From: a virus | Reading direction: 5' to 3' (one strand) | Length of the DNA stretch: 64,000 nucleotides | IMG/VR virus record: IMGVR_UViG_3300024257_000005 | Location: 41,678 to 105,677 of that record | Part shown: one piece after another, positions 21,256 to 63,115 of the stretch | Position numbering within the stretch: position 1 is the stretch's first letter | How the letters are laid out: each line of letters begins with the position of its first letter | Notes under the pieces: model-generated | What the model was told of the DNA's origin: nothing | Database searches by the model: none | Seen by the model: the letters and a program-made list of their open reading frames with translations, nothing else | Translations under genes and position numbers: made by a program

Positions 21256-22905
<1,650 letters not shown>

Positions 22906-23244: not shown

Positions 23245-23255
23245 GCTCTTTAAAA
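23244..23255 (+). promoter_or_regulatory. boxA antitermination element
   Basis: TGCTCTTTAAAA versus rrn boxA TGCTCTTTAACA. Confidence 0.6.
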
Positions 23256-24505: not shown

Positions 24506-24577
24506 CCTGAGGAAGTCTAATGGTAGAGGCTGGGCCCAGGAAGTCTGGTATAGCAAGTTCGATTCTTGTCTTTGGGA
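24506..24577 (+). tRNA. degenerate tRNA, apparent AGG anticodon (Pro?)
   Basis: GU-rich acceptor and anticodon stems; T-arm GCAAGTTCGATTCTTGT. Confidence 0.45.
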
Positions 24578-25339: not shown

Positions 25340-25426
25340 GTGCATGTGGCAGATAGGTAATGCGCCTGGCCGTGGCCCAGGTTGGATAATATCCTCATGC
25401 GGGTTCAAATCCCGTCGTGCACCCCA
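25340..25426 (+). tRNA. tRNA-His(GTG) with long variable arm
   Basis: Loop CCGTGGC; C73; encoded CCA. Confidence 0.75.
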
Positions 25427-25530: not shown

Positions 25531-26160
25531 ATGACTGAAAATTTAGCATTTAAAGATGGCAAGTGGACTGAAAAATGGTTTGATCAGAATATTGAAGCAT
25601 GGACTGAAGCAATCGATGGCTATAAAAAATATGAAGGTGATATTAAATCGGTTCTTGAAATTGGATGCTTTGAAGGTCGAGCAACTGTCTGGCTATGCAA
25701 TACTGTACCAACAATTGAAAAATATACAGTTATTGATACATTCAAAGGAAGCTTAGAAGAAAAAGGTATGGAACGAGCAAAAGATAATTTGACAAAAAAT
25801 GAAAGTCATATCAGATCAAATTTTGAACATAATATTTCTAAATTCAGAGACAAAATTGATTTCACAATAGTTGAAGGTGAATCACAGAGTATGCTGCATG
25901 ATATTAAAGGAAAATATGATTTCATATATATTGATGGAAGTCATAGATCTGATGATGTTTTTATAGATGCATACTGGGCAGATAAATTATTAAATGTGAA
26001 TGGCATAATGATTTTTGATGATTTTGGATGGACAAATCCCGATAGTGAATTATTAATTGATAGCCCAGGATTTGGAATTGGAGAATTTCTTACAATTCAC
26101 ACACATGATTACAATATATTTTTAAGAGGTTATCAACTCGGAATACAAAAAACAAAATAA
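25531..26160 (+). CDS. class I SAM-dependent methyltransferase (Methyltransf_24-like)
   Basis: LEIGCFEG, YIDGSH, IFDD. Confidence 0.85.
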   Translation: MTENLAFKDGKWTEKWFDQNIEAWTEAIDGYKKYEGDIKSVLEIGCFEGRATVWLCNTVPTIEKYTVIDTFKGSLEEKGMERAKDNLTKNESHIRSNFEHNISKFRDKIDFTIVEGESQSMLHDIKGKYDFIYIDGSHRSDDVFIDAYWADKLLNVNGIMIFDDFGWTNPDSELLIDSPGFGIGEFLTIHTHDYNIFLRGYQLGIQKTK

Positions 26161-27206: not shown

Positions 27207-27277
27207 GGGTTATTAGTTCAATGGTAGAATACTCGCCTGTAAAGCGACAGATAGCAGTTCAAGTCTGTTATAACCCA
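27207..27277 (+). tRNA. tRNA with GTA (Tyr) anticodon and short variable loop
   Basis: Loop CTGTAAA; G1:C72; 4-bp anticodon stem. Confidence 0.7.
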
Positions 27278-27284
27278 CAATAAT

Positions 27285-27485: not shown

Positions 27486-27539
27486 CAATCAAAACCATTT
27501 TTATAGTTCGAGTATATTTATATTAAACAGGAGAATAAT

Positions 27540-28217
27540 ATGAATATATGTGAAAATTGCAAACAAGAGCATGATGGACAATATGGATCTGGTAGATTCT
27601 GTTCAGATAAATGTGCAAGAGGATTTAGCACTAAGGCAAAAAGAAAAAACATTAATGAAAAAGTATCTAGAAAATTAAAAATTAATAAACCAATCAGATT
27701 CTGTAAGATCTGCAATGTAGAAATTGGATCTAGAACGCAGCTTGGATATTGTCAAAAACACCTATATGAAAGTGAAGAATATAGATCTCTATTAAGAAAG
27801 CCCCATAAATCAGGGTCTGGTGGTTTGAGAACAGGTGGAGGAAGATCAAAGGTGTTTGAATATGATAGTAAATATGCTGGGTTAGTTAAGCTAAATAAAC
27901 ATGAAATTGAAGTTGCAAAAATATTTGACTCATTAGAGATATTATGAAATCGTAACTGAAAAGGTTTTAGATATGTCGATCTAGAAGGTAGAGATAGAAA
28001 ATATTATCCCGATTTCTATATTCCAGAATTTGATTATTATGTCGAATATAAAGGATGAGTTAATGTAGTTTTAAATCATAAGATGAACAATGCTGTTGAG
28101 CTTAATGATTTTAAATTATTAATTATATATAGCGACGACAAGCGATACAGCCAGCTTGGACTATCGTTGTCAGAGCTTAAAAAATGTCCTCAAAAACTAA
28201 TTAGAGGTATCGGTTAA
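27540..28217 (+). mobile_element. free-standing putative homing endonuclease (Zn finger plus PD-(D/E)xK); TGA=Trp at 27945, 27957, 28056
   Basis: Readthrough gives WNRNWKGF..YYPDFY..VEYKGW; late motif at 27513. Confidence 0.75.
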
Positions 28218-28337: not shown

Positions 28338-28425
28338 GCTCCGTTAGCTCAGTCCGGTATAGAGCGCCTGCCTTACAAGCAGGAGGCCTCCTAGGTTTAC
28401 CTTGGTTCAAATCCAAGACGGAGTA
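28338..28425 (+). tRNA. tRNA-Val(TAC) with long variable arm
   Basis: Loop CTTACAA; extra arm AGGCCTCCTAGGTTT. Confidence 0.85.
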
Positions 28426-28430
28426 CAAAT

Positions 28431-28482
28431 AACTGTTTTATTCTCGCTGTTCTGGTGTATATTCTACCAACAACAAAAGGAG
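28431..28482 (+). promoter_or_regulatory. early promoter/RBS cassette
   Basis: AACTGTTTTA..TATATT..CAACAACAAAAGGAG. Confidence 0.75.
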
Positions 28483-28947: not shown

Positions 28948-29112
28948 ATGACTTTTACAGCGTACAACCACAATGATACAGGTCTTTGTGAACCTACCAC
29001 AAGGCAAGCCGCAATTAAAGAATCAAAAGAATACACCTTTGCAACTGGTAATGAAAGCTATGTCGCCAATAGCAAAGGTGAAATTGTACATGAGAATGTA
29101 AGAGGATATTAA
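28948..29112 (+). CDS. hypothetical protein
   Basis: SD AAGGA. Confidence 0.55.
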   Translation: MTFTAYNHNDTGLCEPTTRQAAIKESKEYTFATGNESYVANSKGEIVHENVRGY

Positions 29113-29313
29113 ATGAGAGATAAGATATATGAAAACTGGGCTAAGTGTGATCCAGTTCTTAGAAAAAGTCTTCTAGAAGCACTAACAATTCCTGAGTTAA
29201 AATTGATGGGTAGCTATTTTGATTATCCACTAAGAGGGAAAAAGAGTGAAATAGTTCATCAACTGATTGGATATTTTAAATCAAATGACAACTGGAAGGC
29301 TATCGCAAAATAA
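29113..29313 (+). CDS. hypothetical protein
   Basis: Abuts previous stop. Confidence 0.55.
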   Translation: MRDKIYENWAKCDPVLRKSLLEALTIPELKLMGSYFDYPLRGKKSEIVHQLIGYFKSNDNWKAIAK

Positions 29314-29315
29314 AT

Positions 29316-29395
29316 GCTCCCGTATGCCAGCCGGTTACGAGCCGGTATAAAGCTAATTGGATAGGAAGATGTCAGTTCGAGCCTGACCGGGAGTT
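29316..29395 (+). tRNA. rearranged, D-armless tRNA-Arg(ACG)-like RNA
   Basis: Acceptor stem identical to tRNA-Arg(TCT); GCCGG-TTACGAG-CCGGT arm; canonical T-arm. Confidence 0.65.
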
Positions 29396-29457
29396 CATGT
29401 ACACTATCCTAACGCGTTCACTCAGAGTGTACATGCGCAAATAGTGTACACATAGAT

Positions 29458-30330: not shown

Positions 30331-30404
30331 GCTCCCGTAGCTCAACTGGATAGAGCAACGGTTTTCTACACCGTAGGTTGGGGGTTCGAATCCCTCCGGG
30401 AGTA
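30331..30404 (+). tRNA. tRNA-Arg(TCT)
   Basis: Loop TTTCTAC; A20. Confidence 0.94.
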
Positions 30405-30724: not shown

Positions 30725-30799
30725 GGGCCGGTAGCTCAGTCTGGTTAGAGCAACCGACTCATAATCGGCAGGTCGCAGGTTCGAATCCTGCCCGGCCCA
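30725..30799 (+). tRNA. tRNA-CAT (Ile2 or Met)
   Basis: Loop CTCATAA; Ile2-like GGGCC acceptor. Confidence 0.88.
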
Positions 30800-58527: not shown

Positions 58528-58529
58528 TT

Positions 58530-59849
58530 ATGAATAAAATCCTTATTAATAGATCGACTGTAAATACTCAGACAGTTAGAGCTCAGACTCAGGCCTTAGA
58601 TAGTGAAGCGCTCAAAAAATCAATTATCAAAAAAGCCAAACTTGATATTAGTGAACTAGTATCAAAAGATCCCATATTACCAAACAGTGGTACAGGTGGT
58701 AGAGCTCATGATGAAATTATAGCAGATCTATATGCCGAGTTTGAGGCAGATTTTGGCGAAATGTCAAATGAAGAATTAGTAGACTTTTCTACACGAGTGA
58801 GATTAGAAATTGACACAATTGTAGAAAATGAAAGACTTGTTAAGAATAAGGGATTATTCATCGATACAGATCAGATATGTATGATCACAGGTAAGCAACC
58901 GTTTGCTGGAACTTCTTCTCCCCACAAGATCAGATTCCCAAACATATACAAAACCGTTGGCTCATATAATTTAGATCAGAATATTTTTACACTCCACTGA
59001 ATGCCAACGCTGAGACCAAATAGCACATTGAGCATTGTTAGGCATAAAGTTTTACATACTCCAGGGTATATGGGATGAGATCTTGAATTGTTATCAAATA
59101 TGAGATATAGATTTAATGCATGGATATGGGATAGAGACGATCAGAAAACTGAAATTATGTCTGTTACTTCTGATGCTAATCAACTTGTACAGCTAAATGA
59201 GTGAAATCATGTTACATTTGGATTTGACATAGGTGGCATTGTTATTCGCGTAGAAGACACTGTCAATACTCAAGCTTATTCAAAGAGCATAGATCTATTC
59301 TATGGAATTAGATGAGATTTCTTAAGCGTGTGAGACTTTGATGCTCCACTGGGACCAACAGGATATAGCGAAGAAGGTCCTATCTTAGGAGATCTATATT
59401 GAGTCTATCCTCAGCTTATTTTTGGTGGAATTAACGTGAGCGATAATACTTCCGATATTGGTCGGTTGAGAAACTCATATACGACAGATGAAAGATCTAT
59501 AGAGCCTCAACATCAAGTCATTGAACTAAATTCTGCACAAAGCCGATCAATTAAAAACGGATTAGATTCATATTACATTATAGCATTTAGAAGCTATATT
59601 GGTGTTCCATCAATAGAGGCTGCTGAAGATAGATTTGTTGACGACCTAAGTGAGAATAATTCATTAAGCATTGCAAGCGTACTAGATGTTCGCTTTGATA
59701 AAATACAAAATGGATCAATTAGAGATTATAGTGAAAGATCTAATCTAGTTGTTCTAACTGGTGACATGAAAATTAACATAGCTGCAGATCAACTAATCAT
59801 TGCTGGCACGAAGAAGCCAAGTCTTGTTAGCATAGAAGGACCCTTTTAA
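58530..59849 (+). CDS. virion protein with LamG-like segment (six TGA=Trp)
   Basis: No TAA/TAG in frame; LNEWNHVTF. Confidence 0.7.
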
Positions 59850-59851
59850 TT

Positions 59852-62800
59852 ATGATAAATCCAAACACTGAAAATACATATGGAGTTGTTCCTGACGTAG
59901 AAGATGCTTCAACAGGAGGAACTGCAGAAGTATATATTACAGTATTTAAGCTAGATGGAACGTTTGTATCTTCGAGAATCTTGCAGCCTGATGAATATAT
60001 CTATTCTACTGGGGGTACTGGACTAGATATTAATCTAAATCTGCACATGTCTAGATATCTAAGCGTTGAGCTGCCTACTGATAACTATGATATTAAAATT
60101 TCATTTGAAAAAGAGATCAATAGTAATATTTTCATTAAAGACGTCTCACCATCAAAGACGGAAATGCGTGTCGGTCTATCGGTCGAGGAAGATACTCAGT
60201 GAGACTATTGGCTTAATTTTCCAGATAGTTTTTTAGCATCATTTGACAAGTTTGTCACTGCTAATGGCGAACACTTTAGAATCATCAATGTAACACCTGA
60301 CTATTCTAAAGTTATTGAAATGCAAGGACCTATTGAGGAAAATATTTCTAATACTGAAGAATTAATTAGCTCTAAGCAGGCCCAAGTAAGTGGAGCGGCC
60401 AACATGCCTGCTGATATTGTTTTAGAATTTGTATCATCTATAGAAAATCTACAAACAAGCTTGGCACAGTATCAGGTAGATCTTAATAACATCATGCAAT
60501 ATGCTACGATGATTGTTAAATTAGAAAATCCTTATAAAGGACCGACCGAAGTTCCAATCAATAATTCTCACATCTATACAGAGCAATATGTTTCAGTATC
60601 ATATCAAAATGTATATGTCTATTTTGAAGAACATGGACAGGGAGCAACAATTGAATTAACCGACAGATCTACTAGAAATGATAGTACAGGAAATACAAAT
60701 TGGTTCAACTATGAAGAGCTAGTGCTCAATGACAGTGGTTCGTTTGAACAAAACATATCATCATCAAAAGTATCTGGTGTTAAAAACCTAAACATCGACT
60801 ATGAGGCTTTCCAAAATCATACATACTTTGGTCTGGCACAAGATAAGTTCGTCAATGCCTACACAAAGATTAGAGATATTGAGGCATACAATGAAATCAT
60901 CCAGACATTTCCTACATCTTCTGATGCACTTGTGACAAGTCAAAGCTATTCGGATAAAATCACTGAAATCAAGAATGATTTTACTCAGTATGAAAGATAT
61001 ATGTATGAAAAATCAGGTAGCTATGCTTGACCAAAATTTTCATCCGGTACTTCATCTATAAACTATTCATACTCATCATCACAGGTTCAAACATGGTACG
61101 GAATACAAGAGCTATCTGGATCTGTATTTGATAAAAACAACAAGTATTCGTTGATTAAAAATATTCCAGAAGTTATTGCTCTAGAAGATTCGGAGAGATA
61201 CTTAAGATCTCTATTAGGATCATGAGGGGATTTCTTTGATTATATTAAATCATACATAGAGCAGTTCCAATACTTGTTCACATTTGACTATGACAAGATT
61301 AATTCAGTTCCAGATGAAATTCTACATCTATACTCTTCAGTATTTAATATAGAATTATTCTCTGGATATGACGATGTAAGAGCTTCATCATATCTTCATG
61401 GTTCTAATCAAGCATCTGGATCGGCAGCTTTACGAGATGTCACACGAGAAAAATGGATTCGCTTATTCTCTTCAATGCCATACTTGAATAAAATTCGTGG
61501 AACAAGAAGATCAATTGATGCCATTTTAAACATCTATGGAATTCCTAGATCAATACTCACAATTAGAGAATTTGGAGGAAGCAAAACTTCTGGATCAGAT
61601 TATGTTGATGAAGATGTCAACACTTATGCATTAAATTTCTGGGGTGGTGAAAGCATTGAGGTTCAAAATGCAAACTATAGCCAGCTATCTGGATCTGACT
61701 TTACAATTGAAATGAGATATGCAACAACATCCTCTGGCGACCTACCGCTATTTGGAAATACTGGATTTAATGTAACACTTGAAGACAATGGAGATGCTGA
61801 TGACTATGGATCTATAGTTTGTAACATCTCTGGATCGCCTACAATTTGAAATGCTAGTGGATCAGATGCTGTGCCATACTTCAATGGTGATTGGTTCAAT
61901 ATTATTCTTAGAAGATCTGGCTCTGAATTAACTCTTAAGACAAAATACTTTAAAGAGGATCAAATGTTCTACGATCTTTCTGGCTCGGCAACACTTAGTG
62001 CCGTATCTCAATCTTATTTGGATGCCGGTGTTTATGCTGGTAATGTTTTATTCTTTGGTGCTACCGGATCTGTTGGAGCATACTCTGGTGCAATGCAAGA
62101 GGTAAGATTGTGGAGCTCATCATTAAGCGAACCTGCATTAACTCAGCATGCTTATGATTTTAGATCTGTAGCAATGATAAATCCTTTTGACATTGATGAC
62201 AATCTTGTAGCACACTACAAACTAAATGATAATGTGACCGGATCGACAGCCAATGACTATTCATATCCACCAGTTATTGATGTGACACTAAATGGATTTA
62301 CTGGAAATCAATATAGCAATTTCACAAAATCTACAAAAACTAATTTGAACTATTTTATGACTAGCAAATATTCGTCAAATCAAATCAATATTGGGCACAC
62401 ATCTGAATCTCAGACTGAAAATACAAATGTGATTGATATTATTTTCTCACCAGTCAAGGCAATCAATGAAGATATCATAAGCGATTTTGCCATGTATGAC
62501 TTTAACGATGCCATTGGAGATCCATCTGATATGTATAATGAAAAATATCTAGATCTAGAATCGTGACGTGAGTTTTATTTTAAGAAGCTACCTAATAATT
62601 ATGATTTCTATGCTTATATGAGATTTATTAGAAATTTTGATCAAAGCATTATGAAAATTGTAGAGACGGTAGTTCCAATGAGAGCAAAATTGTGAAGTGG
62701 AATTTTAATAGAGCAGCCTATTCTAGAAAGAACAAAATATAGATGGGAAAAGAGTTCTGTTGCAACAAATCATAATTCAAGTTCATTTGATGTCACGACT

Positions 62801-63115
62801 GTCACAATATTATCTGAATCAATTGCAAACAATACATCACAGAGCATTGATATTACAACAACATTCCCAATTACGGGATCTGACAGATCTATGATGTCTG
62901 CCTCGGTAATTTATGAGGTAACTGGATCGCAACTAGGATCAAATAGTTTCTATTCATCGGCAGATAGCACCGTATCTAGCTCTCAATATTTAACTGTATT
63001 TGAATTATTGTCAAATGCAACATATAAAGGCACTCAGAACACAGATGCCACCAATTATGATGGAGCTGTGGTACAAGTTAGCCAAAGTTCGGGTGCAATC
63101 ATTAGAGTCAAATAA
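59852..63115 (+). CDS. large baseplate/tail protein, 1087 aa (six TGA=Trp)
   Basis: Five supplied ORFs in one frame; SYAWPK, RGTRRSI..YGIP..IREFGG, EVRLW. Confidence 0.8.

What the first reader, a model, noticed from the sequence alone, without database searches (positions are those of the whole stretch)
29316..29395. tRNA-Arg(ACG)-like RNA with D-arm and anticodon arm in swapped order
Seen: the acceptor stem GCTCCCG/CGGGAGT is identical to that of tRNA-Arg(TCT) at 30331. After only 7 nt comes an anticodon hairpin GCCGG-TTACGAG-CCGGT, then a D-loop-like AGCTAATTGGATAG where the variable loop should be, then a normal T-arm. No other tRNA here reads CGN codons. Inference: a functional tRNA with permuted topology that supplies the D-loop GG and A20 from the variable position, possibly evading tRNases.
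Basis: partly seen in the sequence, partly recalled or inferred. Interest (0 to 1): 0.7.

Follow-up and report, generated by a model that had tools for sequence, protein, structure and literature searches.

The report
Rewired non-cloverleaf phage arginine tRNA
This 80-base gene in an uncultured giant phage is a divergent member of a widespread, almost unannotated family of phage tRNAs in which half of the D-arm sits after the anticodon arm instead of before it; it is most likely the phage's missing arginine tRNA for CGN codons.

Summary
ARAGORN and Rfam's tRNA model do not see the element. No copy turned up in IMG/VR, JGI metagenomes or GTDB contigs, so I first read it as a rearranged relic.

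Earlier notes of this scan had reported similar "rewired" Arg and Ile tRNAs on other DNA. I tested that lead independently. Felix O1 carries an uncalled 79-nt Arg(UCU) gene with the same layout. Homologues occur in 263 phage records, and related Ile(GAU/UAU), Arg(UCG) and Arg(ACG) forms in more than 100 others.

All four helices covary in 17 sequences (97% of cells paired, 17 of 20 pairs compensatory, 0 of 500 shuffles). This includes a 3-bp helix that encloses the anticodon arm. Covariance models built without the candidate score it 32.7, 38.5 and 44.4 bits as the family sample widens. About 83 ordinary tRNAs score at most 33.4.

In Streptomyces phages, rewired and canonical Arg(ACG) genes occupy the same locus.

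The candidate is divergent. It has a weakened helix, a 5-nt insertion, U32/G38 and U73, and I have no conservation data for its own lineage. Function is therefore inferred: a working tRNA about 0.6, a decaying member about 0.25.

I found no paper that describes this topology.

The parts
28427..28463 (+). Promoter-like motif (AAATAACTGTTT...GTGTATATT) that probably starts the transcription unit holding the element
   Evidence: Repeat families D13 and D16 recur at 23249, 28427 and 32522. Promoter function is inferred only.
29113..29313 (+). Small upstream ORF (66 aa) whose TAA stop lies 2 nt before the element
   Evidence: No relatives in IMG/VR.
29316..29322 (+). Acceptor stem, 5' strand GCUCCCG
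   Evidence: Pairs 7 of 7 with 29388-29394. Identical to tRNA-Arg(TCT) at 30331.
29323..29325 (+). U8, A9 and the family-invariant U
   Evidence: T8 A9 T10 are invariant in all 19 family sequences.
29326..29329 (+). Connector G11 C12 C13 A14. This is the strand of the D-helix that stays upstream (canonical 23-25) plus position 26.
   Evidence: Aligned to family columns 11-14 by models R2 and R3. In the family, columns 11-13 pair with 40-42 with compensatory changes.
29330..29346 (+). Anticodon arm GCCGG-UUACGAG-CCGGU; anticodon ACG at 29337-29339
   Evidence: Five pairs, U33 and A37. Aligned to the family anticodon arm. Pair probability is only about 0.1 in single-sequence thermodynamics. U32/G38 is rare.
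29347..29351 (+). Linker AUAAA between the anticodon arm and the relocated D-stem strand
   Evidence: Matches the 5-nt linker UGAAA/AGAAA of the Ile and Arg(ACG) subfamily.
29352..29353 (+). G37 C38, the relocated D-stem strand (canonical G10...), one base shorter than usual
   Evidence: R3 pairs C13-G37 and G11-C38. R2 pairs G11-C38 and C12-G37 with C13.A36. Phage Zooman's Arg(ACG) has the same one-base shortening.
29354..29360 (+). UAAUUGG, the relocated D-loop (U13 A14 A15 U16 U17 G18 G19)
   Evidence: UAA-nn-GG is conserved in all family members. Aligned at high posterior probability.
29361..29365 (+). AUAGG, a 5-nt insertion relative to the family. Its first base is the A20-like residue.
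   Evidence: Shown as an insertion by R2 and R3.
29366..29370 (+). AAGAU, the last 5 nt before the T-stem. The closing AU is invariant in the family.
   Evidence: Aligned to aGuAU. A53 and T54 are invariant.
29371..29387 (+). T-arm GUCAG-UUCGAGC-CUGAC
   Evidence: Five pairs and a T-loop of consensus form.
29388..29395 (+). Acceptor stem 3' strand CGGGAGU plus discriminator U; no encoded CCA
   Evidence: Discriminator U is shared with the rewired Arg(ACG) gene of a Microbacterium phage. All 10 canonical Arg tRNAs examined have A.
29396..29457 (+). Structured spacer hairpin between the element and tRNA-Cys
   Evidence: MFE -18.6 kcal/mol, z = -3.0. Its role is unknown.

Best explanation
The element is a tRNA-Arg(ACG) gene of a 'rewired D-arm' class of phage tRNAs.

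Anatomy, in order:
- 7-bp acceptor stem, 5' strand
- U8-A9-U
- one D-stem strand (G11 C12 C13, equivalent to canonical 23-25) and A26
- a normal anticodon arm
- a 5-nt linker
- the other D-stem strand joined to the D-loop (GC-U-AAUUGGA, equivalent to canonical 10-21)
- a short tail ending in AU
- T-arm, acceptor 3' strand, and U73

The short D-helix therefore encloses the anticodon arm, and the GG/A20 loop lies in the variable-loop position.

Inferred 3D logic: the new joins connect residues that are already neighbours in the canonical tRNA core (9 next to 23, 45 next to 10, 21 next to 48). The usual L-shape can therefore form.

Inferred function: the RNA is cut from the array transcript by RNase P and 3' trimming. 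It then receives CCA, is charged by host ArgRS (C35, G36, A20), and is deaminated to I34 by host TadA. It would then read CGU/CGC/CGA, which fills the only empty codon box of the phage's tRNA set.

Shown here: the anatomy, the existence and covariation of the class, and the candidate's alignment to it. Inferred: folding, processing, charging and decoding.
For: (1) The class is real.
- Felix O1 25951-26029 has the same layout and is not called by ARAGORN.
- Full-length homologues occur in 263 phage records across unrelated genera.
- The Ile(GAU/UAU) form occurs in 83 records.
- Arg(ACG) and Arg(UCG) forms occur in Microbacterium and Streptomyces phages.

(2) The helices covary.
- 15 sequences: 97.7% of cells paired, 16 of 20 pairs compensatory, 0 of 500 shuffles reach this, and slid controls collapse.
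- 17 sequences: all three pairs of the enclosing D-helix are compensatory and 100% paired.

(3) The candidate belongs to it.
- Models built without the candidate score it 32.7, 38.5 and 44.4 bits (E = 6e-11), aligned end to end. About 83 canonical tRNAs in the same searches score at most 33.4.
- RF00005 gives those canonical tRNAs 40-74 bits and gives the candidate nothing.

(4) It shares the family's landmarks: U8-A9-U, a 5-nt connector, a 5-nt A-rich linker, UAAUUGG, and a closing AU. UAAYYGGAU and discriminator U are shared with the Microbacterium Arg(ACG) gene.

(5) Rewired Arg(ACG) genes of Braelyn and Persimmon sit at the same locus as the canonical Arg(ACG) gene of Genie2, with an identical T-arm. 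This argues that the two forms are functionally equivalent.

(6) The set is completed.
- The phage's 27 other tRNAs cover every box except CGN.
- CGN codons are 34% of its Arg codons, mostly CGU and CGA.
- In Felix O1 the rewired gene is likewise the only Arg(UCU).

(7) The acceptor, anticodon and T helices are all perfect.
Against: - This copy is divergent. It scores 44 bits, while held-out family members score 63-86.
- Its D-helix has only two pairs, because one base of the relocated strand is missing or there is a C.A mismatch at the near-invariant C-G pair.
- It has a 5-nt insertion after the GG.
- Its anticodon loop has U32/G38, seen in 1 of 105 real tRNAs. All other Arg(ACG) genes have C32...A38.
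- A position-weight test rates the hairpin more like a reverse-complemented anticodon arm, by roughly 10:1.
- Single-sequence thermodynamics prefers another register that buries ACG (P 0.9 against 0.1). Only 2 of 27 real tRNAs do as badly.
- All canonical Arg tRNAs examined have A73.
- There are no expression, charging or modification data for any member of the class.
Confidence: 0.6

Rival explanations
1. It is a decaying or inactive member of the rewired class. The gene descends from a working rewired tRNA-Arg(ACG) but no longer decodes. The intact acceptor/T-arm minihelix would still make it a substrate for RNase P, 3' trimming and CCA addition. It would then act at most as a processing signal ('t-element') that frees the upstream mRNA and the downstream tRNAs.
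For: - Its model score is far lower than that of other members (44 against 63-100 bits).
- The D-helix is weakened, there is a 5-nt insertion, and U32/G38 is rare.
- Thermodynamics prefers a competing fold.
- The same array holds another sub-threshold tRNA-like gene at 24506-24577 (23 bits), and pseudo-tRNAs are known in jumbo-phage arrays (PMC5852040).
- The element starts 2 nt after a stop codon. Plant-mitochondrial t-elements with an intact T-arm direct RNase P/Z cuts at mRNA ends (PMC1920247).
Against: - All three main helices and the T-loop are free of mismatches.
- The one-base-shorter D-strand also occurs in cultured phage Zooman, and U73 in another cultured phage.
- The element fills exactly the one empty codon box.
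- Phage genomes seldom keep dead DNA.
Confidence: 0.25
2. It is a tRNA-shaped RNA with a job other than decoding. For example, it could be a decoy or sponge for a host nuclease that attacks tRNA-Arg, or a partner of the phage's RNA-repair enzymes.
For: - The phage encodes Rnl1, Rnl2 and PNKP.
- Phage tRNAs are known to counter tRNA-targeting defences (PMC10264068, PMC11555353, PMC11464382).
- The array holds other oddly built tRNAs: Val and His with long variable arms, and a short-armed Tyr.
Against: - The class keeps canonical anticodon loops for particular codon boxes and replaces canonical genes at the same locus. That fits decoding better than mimicry.
- Nothing here tests nuclease resistance.
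Confidence: 0.1
3. It is an accidental chimera, formed by recombination among array tRNAs or by misassembly, in which the ACG loop is a coincidence, for example an inverted anticodon arm of a Met/Thr-type tRNA.
For: - The hairpin's reverse complement matches the anticodon arm of tRNA-Met at 30753-30769 in 14 of 17 positions.
- The reverse-complement orientation scores better in the position-weight test.
- No copy was found in any collection searched.
Against: - 11 of 105 real arms show an equally good reverse-complement match by chance.
- A bona fide tRNA-Gln in the relative has the same UU...AG loop form.
- The end-to-end match to an independent family model (E = 6e-11) is not expected of a random chimera.
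- The element is shorter than a sequencing read, and its arms match no other tRNA in the contig.
Confidence: 0.05

Closest known systems
Rewired phage tRNAs, e.g. Felix O1 25951-26029 (Arg-UCU), Streptomyces phage Braelyn 95792-95868 and Microbacterium phage Zooman 89187-89262 (Arg-ACG). They are unannotated, or labelled 'tRNA-OTHER', in GenBank records.
   Same: The order of parts is the same: acceptor, U8-A9-U, a 3-nt D-stem strand plus 1 nt, the anticodon arm, a 5-8 nt linker, the other D-stem strand, UAA-nn-GG, a closing AU, and the T-arm. The anticodon ACG is the same as in four of them. U73 matches one of them, and the shortened D-strand matches Zooman. Braelyn and Persimmon have a near-identical acceptor 3' strand.
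   Different: The candidate has a 5-nt insertion after the GG, U32/G38 instead of C32/A38, a two-pair D-helix, and a much lower model score. It comes from an unrelated marine-type jumbo phage, probably with an FCB-group or Marinimicrobia host, not from an enterobacterial or actinobacterial phage.
Canonical bacterial and phage tRNA-Arg(ACG) (Rfam RF00005), e.g. L086:1983-2058 in the related phage G003 and L175:1484-1558 in a Neomarinimicrobiota genome
   Same: Acceptor stem family GCUCCC(A/G)...GGGAGU; D-loop AAUUGGAUA; anticodon ACG with U33 and A37; the T-arm.
   Different: The D-stem 5' strand and the D-loop lie 3' of the anticodon arm. There is no hairpin D-arm. The discriminator is U rather than A. 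tRNA finders do not detect it.
D-armless mitochondrial tRNAs, e.g. animal mt tRNA-Ser(AGY) and Ascaris suum tRNA-Ser(UCU) (PMC7609411)
   Same: A short connector lies between the acceptor stem and the anticodon stem, and there is no D hairpin in the usual place.
   Different: Those tRNAs have truly lost the D-arm and have short variable loops. Here the D-loop, with GG and A20, is kept but relocated, and a covarying D-helix is retained. ARAGORN's mitochondrial mode does not call the candidate.
allo-tRNAs (8/4 and 9/3 acceptor/T-stem forms; Mukai et al. 2017, PMC5389517)
   Same: They are natural, non-canonical tRNA architectures found in bacteria and phages that standard annotation misses.
   Different: allo-tRNAs keep the cloverleaf order and change the stem lengths. 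Here the order of the strands differs while the 7/5 acceptor branch is normal.
Plant-mitochondrial t-elements (PMC1920247) and the T4 stable RNAs species 1 and 2 (the latter recalled from memory, not checked here)
   Same: They are tRNA-like RNAs with an intact acceptor/T-arm, lie beside genes, and are processed by tRNA enzymes.
   Different: They have no conserved anticodon arm tied to a codon box. This comparison applies only if the candidate no longer decodes.

Membership tests
Canonical cloverleaf tRNA (Rfam RF00005) | 7-bp acceptor stem and a 5-bp T-arm with a UUCRANY loop | tested here: met
Canonical cloverleaf tRNA (Rfam RF00005) | Hairpin D-arm between position 9 and the anticodon arm | tested here: not met
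   Only 7 nt lie between the acceptor and anticodon stems. ARAGORN finds nothing in default, intron or mitochondrial modes.
Canonical cloverleaf tRNA (Rfam RF00005) | Score at or above the family's gathering threshold (29 bits) | tested here: not met
   There is no RF00005 match even at E<=10.
Rewired D-arm phage tRNA class (defined here from 19 sequences) | Order of parts: acc7, U8-A9-U, a 3-nt strand plus 1 nt, a 5+7+5 anticodon arm, a 5-8 nt linker, a 3-nt partner strand, UAA-nn-GG, a closing AU, T-arm, acc7 | tested here: met
   Models R2 and R3 align the candidate end to end, with one 5-nt insertion and a one-base-short partner strand. See also the side-by-side parse.
Rewired D-arm phage tRNA class (defined here from 19 sequences) | Scores above ordinary tRNAs with a covariance model built without it | tested here: met
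   32.7, 38.5 and 44.4 bits with R1, R2 and R3, against at most 27.2, 32.4 and 33.4 for canonical tRNAs in the same sources. In another genome, canonical tRNAs reached 32.8 bits with R1.
Rewired D-arm phage tRNA class (defined here from 19 sequences) | 3-bp helix between connector positions 11-13 and the three bases before UAA; paired in 100% of family cells | tested here: inconclusive
   Only two pairs form. They are either G11-C38 and C12-G37 with C13.A36, or C13-G37 and G11-C38 with the middle partner missing. Zooman shows the same shortening. Nearest-neighbour energy does not favour any enclosing helix in the single sequence; a different register (10, 12, 13 with 49, 50, 52) was the one tested.
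Rewired D-arm phage tRNA class (defined here from 19 sequences) | Conservation with compensatory changes among close relatives | not testable with these tools
   No relative holding this locus was found.
Bacterial tRNA-Arg identity set (ArgRS: A20, C35, G36/U36, A/G73; TadA: U33-A34-C35-G36) - from established knowledge | C35, G36 and the U33-A34 loop context | tested here: met
   The loop is UUACGAG.
Bacterial tRNA-Arg identity set (ArgRS: A20, C35, G36/U36, A/G73; TadA: U33-A34-C35-G36) - from established knowledge | A20 following G18 G19 in the D-loop | tested here: inconclusive
   GGA is present at 29359-29361 in the relocated D-loop. Whether it occupies the A20 site in three dimensions cannot be tested here.
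Bacterial tRNA-Arg identity set (ArgRS: A20, C35, G36/U36, A/G73; TadA: U33-A34-C35-G36) - from established knowledge | Purine discriminator (A73 or G73) | tested here: not met
   The candidate has U73, while 10 of 10 canonical Arg tRNAs have A. One rewired Arg(ACG) gene in a cultured Microbacterium phage also has U73.
D-armless mitochondrial-type tRNA | D-replacement loop, a short variable loop, and no D-loop motif | tested here: not met
   A 24-nt segment carrying a complete D-loop motif follows the anticodon arm. ARAGORN -mt finds nothing at its default threshold.
Circularly permuted tRNA genes (Cyanidioschyzon type) - from established knowledge | The 3' half is encoded upstream of the 5' half, and the mature tRNA is a normal cloverleaf | tested here: not met
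   The acceptor strands lie at the two ends in normal order. No cyclic permutation of the gene yields a cloverleaf.
t-element / tRNA-like processing signal (PMC1920247) | A conserved T-arm and acceptor stem with a non-canonical remainder, whose ends coincide with mRNA ends | not testable with these tools
   The structure fits, and the element starts 2 nt after a stop codon. No transcript-end data exist.

The most novel reading that the evidence does not exclude
Bacterial-type translation uses a second, non-cloverleaf tRNA topology. In it, the D-stem 5' strand and the D-loop are moved behind the anticodon arm. This topology is widespread in phages, interchangeable with canonical genes, and often travels next to homing endonucleases. 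The copy studied here would be the working CGN-reading tRNA-Arg of a marine jumbo phage. That would extend the class to a new phage and host lineage. The class may also exist because it escapes host enzymes that cut or recognise ordinary tRNA cores.
Probability: 0.5. Interest if true: 0.9.

Novelty: new variant of a known kind. Interest (0 to 1): 0.78.

Why it matters
The cloverleaf order of tRNA arms is treated as universal outside mitochondria. tRNA finders, Rfam and genome annotation all assume it.

A conserved, covarying family that breaks this order, and that replaces canonical genes at the same locus, would show that the L-shape can be built from a differently threaded chain. I verified the family here in several hundred phage records, including the classic phage Felix O1.

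It would also mean that phage tRNA sets are systematically undercounted, which affects analyses of codon compensation and of anti-defence roles. It would give tRNA engineers a natural alternative scaffold as well.

For this phage, the element turns a tRNA set with one gap into a complete one.

The idea is directly testable by tRNA sequencing of Felix O1-infected cells and by in vitro arginylation.

Tried and rejected
**Searches for a copy of the candidate**
- Exact and stem-agnostic pattern searches in IMG/VR, JGI metagenomes and GTDB contigs gave only chance hits inside coding DNA.
- BLAST of the element and of 1 kb around it against deposited phages found nothing relevant.

**Searches for relatives of the phage**
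- The flanking ORFs and the 714-aa protein have no relatives.
- The GroEL and tmRNA anchors find only three short related fragments. One of them (G003) has a large array with a canonical Arg(ACG) but no rewired gene.
- GroEL is identical on 25 contigs.

**Readings considered and dropped or kept with low weight**
- Pseudogene or relic as the main reading. I held this until and downgraded it after the family tests.
- A D-helix using G49 G50 A52. It is energetically worse and expected by chance 8% of the time.
- R1's register using G44 G45. The broader models superseded it.
- The hairpin as an inverted Met/Thr-type anticodon arm. The similarity is not significant, since 11 of 105 controls match as well. 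The orientation test favours the reverse complement only about 10:1. I kept this as a low-weight rival.
- The hairpin as a repeated insertion element. There are no other copies.
- The 5' similarity to the 3' end of tRNA-Gly. I judged this coincidental.
- A phage-encoded TadA. The deaminase on the contig is of dCMP-deaminase/ComEB type. The contig has no CCA-adding enzyme and no ArgRS.

**Methods that did not help**
- Brute-force single inversions, moves and deletions. Many block moves give an ARAGORN-callable Arg(ACG), but mostly through ad hoc D-arms, so the result does not diagnose origin.
- MAFFT alignments A3 and A4 were structurally unsound for the candidate or for the second subfamily. 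I did not use them for models.

Full report
**Observation**

- Both acceptor strands equal those of tRNA-Arg(TCT) at 30331.
- ARAGORN finds 27 tRNAs and a tmRNA in the window but not this element, also in intron and mitochondrial modes.
- Rfam's tRNA model gives it no match even at E<=10.

**Context**

The window belongs to a 105.7-kb IMG/VR contig that is about half complete and 37% G+C, with all genes on one strand. It encodes Rnl1, Rnl2, PNKP, GroEL and a tmRNA.
- The GroEL is closest (75-76%) to Ca. Marinimicrobia proteins, which hints at the host.
- The 27 tRNAs cover every codon box except CGN. No CGN reader lies anywhere on the contig.
- CGN codons make up 34% of the phage's Arg codons, mainly CGU and CGA.
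- The element begins 2 nt after the TAA stop of a small ORF. It lies downstream of a recurring promoter-like motif at 28427.

**First phase: an apparent orphan**

Pattern searches that tolerate any stem sequence found only chance matches in IMG/VR, JGI metagenomes and GTDB contigs.
- The neighbouring ORFs have no relatives.
- The only related phage fragments (GroEL 70% identical, tmRNA sharing a 34-nt block) hold a large array with a canonical tRNA-Arg(ACG), but nothing like the element.

Internal tests were mixed.
- The D-like segment is clearly the 5' strand and loop of an Arg-type D-arm.
- An ACG-type hairpin is rare in shuffles, at 0.16%.
- Thermodynamics prefers a register that buries ACG (P 0.9 against 0.1). 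Real tRNAs of the array have a median of 0.82, and only 2 of 27 fall below 0.2.
- U32/G38 occurs in 1 of 105 real tRNAs, and all canonical Arg tRNAs have A73.
- The hairpin scores better as a reverse-complemented anticodon arm.

At that point I rated a rearranged relic as most likely.

**The turn**

A word search of this scan's earlier notes reported 'rewired' Arg and Ile tRNAs on other DNA. In these, one D-stem strand and the D-loop follow the anticodon arm. One note mentioned an odd Arg gene in Felix O1. These notes are unchecked AI leads, so I tested the claim from scratch.

My own acceptor-plus-T-arm scan of Felix O1 (NC_005282) finds an uncalled 79-nt gene at 25951-26029. It reads acc7 | UA | UCUCA | GCGGU-CUUCUAA-ACCGC | 23 nt | T-arm | acc7 | A. 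This is the candidate's layout, and it is Felix O1's only Arg(UCU).

The gene and its relatives are widespread.
- BLAST finds full-length homologues in 263 phage records. These span Felixounavirus, Klebsiella phages of 110 and 143 kb, jumbo coliphages of 350 kb, Justusliebigvirus, a Serratia phage and Streptomyces phages. Nearly all are unannotated or labelled 'tRNA-OTHER'.
- A model built from ten of them finds a second rewired gene in Streptomyces phage Genie2, an Ile(GAU).
- Its relatives occur in 83 records and include an Ile(UAU) and an Arg(ACG) in a Microbacterium phage.
- Relatives of that Arg(ACG) gene include three more Arg(ACG) genes (Zooman, Braelyn, Persimmon) and an Arg(UCG).
- ARAGORN, run on five of the newly found genes, called none of them.

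**The family's structure**

All members read: acc7 | U8 A9 U | N11 N12 C13 | N | anticodon arm | 5-8 nt | G-N-N | UAA-nn-GG ... AU | T-arm | acc7.
- In 15 sequences aligned by MAFFT, 97.7% of cells pair, 16 of 20 pairs show compensatory double changes, and 0 of 500 shuffles reach this. Slid controls fall below 54% paired.
- The short helix between 11-13 and the three bases before UAA is paired in every sequence. It appears as CUC/GAG, CGC/GCG, ACC/GGU, CCC/GGG and CCG/CGG.
- In the 17-sequence structural alignment, all three of its pairs show compensatory changes. That alignment was fitted to the model, which is a caveat.

Read in canonical numbering, the connector is the D-stem 3' strand (23-25) plus position 26. 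'G-N-N-U-A-A-n-n-G-G-A' is G10 to N13 plus the D-loop. The family therefore keeps every piece of the D-arm but threads the chain differently.

That the new joins link residues already adjacent in the canonical core (9 with 23, 45 with 10, 21 with 48) is my inference from known tRNA structure. It is not a computed model.

**Membership of the candidate**

Three covariance models that never contained the candidate score it 32.7 bits (R1, Arg-UCU only), 38.5 bits (R2, 15 sequences) and 44.4 bits (R3, 17 sequences; E = 6e-11). Each aligns it end to end.
- About 83 canonical tRNAs in the same searches stay at or below 27.2, 32.4 and 33.4 bits.
- Held-out members score 63-86 bits.
- R2 and R3 place G11 C12 C13 opposite (A)G37 C38, giving two pairs. 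They align AUAAA to the 5-nt linker, UAAUUGG to the family motif at high posterior probability, and AAGAU to the closing segment. There is one 5-nt insertion (29361-29365).
- The one-base-shorter strand recurs in the cultured phage Zooman. U73 and UAAYYGGAU recur in the Microbacterium Arg(ACG) gene. Braelyn and Persimmon have nearly the candidate's acceptor.
- The score alone is not decisive, because ordinary tRNAs reached 32.8 bits with R1 in another genome. The rising score, the full-length architecture and the shared motifs together make the case.

**Evidence that the class works as tRNA**
- Canonical anticodon loops are kept for particular boxes.
- All stems show compensatory evolution.
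- In Felix O1, and in this phage, the rewired gene supplies a box that no canonical gene covers.
- The rewired Arg(ACG) genes of Braelyn and Persimmon sit at the very locus where the related Genie2 has a canonical Arg(ACG). The flanks align and the T-arm is identical.

None of this is an experiment.

**Literature**

The review of natural non-canonical tRNAs (PMC7609411) covers Sec, selC*-Cys, allo-tRNA, Pyl and armless mitochondrial tRNAs. It mentions no swapped or permuted arm order and no phage case. Further searches found no description of the class. Subscription journals are largely outside the library, so this is absence in what I could search, not proof of novelty.

**Verdict**

The element is a divergent member of a real, widespread, apparently undescribed class of non-cloverleaf phage tRNAs. 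This scan had already met the class on other DNA. I rate membership in the class at about 0.8.

The element is most likely the phage's CGN-reading tRNA-Arg(ACG) (0.6). The main rival is a decaying copy that still serves as a processing signal (0.25).

The exact anatomy differs from 'swapped arms', and nuclease evasion is untested.

Noticed in passing
window 24506-24577: A second uncalled tRNA-like gene lies directly upstream of tRNA-Gly(TCC). It scores 23.1 bits with Rfam tRNA (below the 29-bit threshold). Its stems are rich in G.U pairs, it has C33 instead of U33, and its anticodon is AGG. It may be a decaying tRNA or an unusual one.
   Followed up: partly
window 28338-28426, 25340-25426, 27207-27278: tRNA-Val(TAC) (89 nt) and tRNA-His(GTG) (87 nt) carry long variable arms, which bacterial Val and His tRNAs normally lack. 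One of the two tRNA-Tyr genes is a short 72-nt form without the long arm that bacterial Tyr tRNAs normally have.
   Followed up: no
window 29396-29457: A structured spacer lies between the element and tRNA-Cys (MFE -18.6 kcal/mol, z = -3.0). Repeated AGTGTACA words allow two alternative pairings.
   Followed up: partly
window 23249, 28427, 32522: A promoter-like motif recurs (AAATAACTGTTT... about 20 nt ...GTGTATATT). Each copy lies ahead of a block of small ORFs or tRNAs.
   Followed up: no
whole contig, e.g. window 59851-63115, 58529-59849, 27539-28217: Reading TGA as sense lengthens many ORFs. Total length of long ORFs rises from 71 to 83 kb, and one 1088-codon frame has six in-frame TGAs. 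No tRNA with a UCA anticodon was found. This may indicate TGA recoding.
   Followed up: partly
L086:2630-3102 (relative G003, IMGVR_UViG_3300024336_000035): A GOLLD RNA (190 bits) with an embedded tRNA-like module sits inside the relative's tRNA array, just after its canonical tRNA-Arg(ACG).
   Followed up: no
L086:4634-4723 and L086:4158-4226: The relative has a 90-nt 'tRNA-Ile(TAT)' with an Arg-type acceptor stem, a D-loop without GG and a 23-nt variable region. It also has an uncalled CAT-anticodon tRNA-like gene with a tiny D-arm.
   Followed up: partly
Felix O1 L182:26533-26611 and 29097-29169; phage W22 51778-51844 (L198): More tRNA-like genes are missed or flagged as pseudogenes. Felix O1 has a Trp(CCA)-type gene with an odd D region and an annotated pseudo tRNA-His that scores 33 bits with the rewired model. 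W22 has a 67-nt D-armless Ser(GCU)-type gene.
   Followed up: no
Flanks of rewired genes in Felix O1, heid, Roth37, Kamaji, Persimmon, TomSawyer and TunaTartare: Rewired tRNA genes often lie next to, or overlap, HNH endonuclease or endonuclease VII genes. This suggests spread or replacement by homing.
   Followed up: no
window 21271-22905: The phage GroEL is identical on 25 public contigs (longest 128 kb). It is 75-76% identical to Ca. Marinimicrobia GroEL, which hints at the host and shows that the phage is common.
   Followed up: partly
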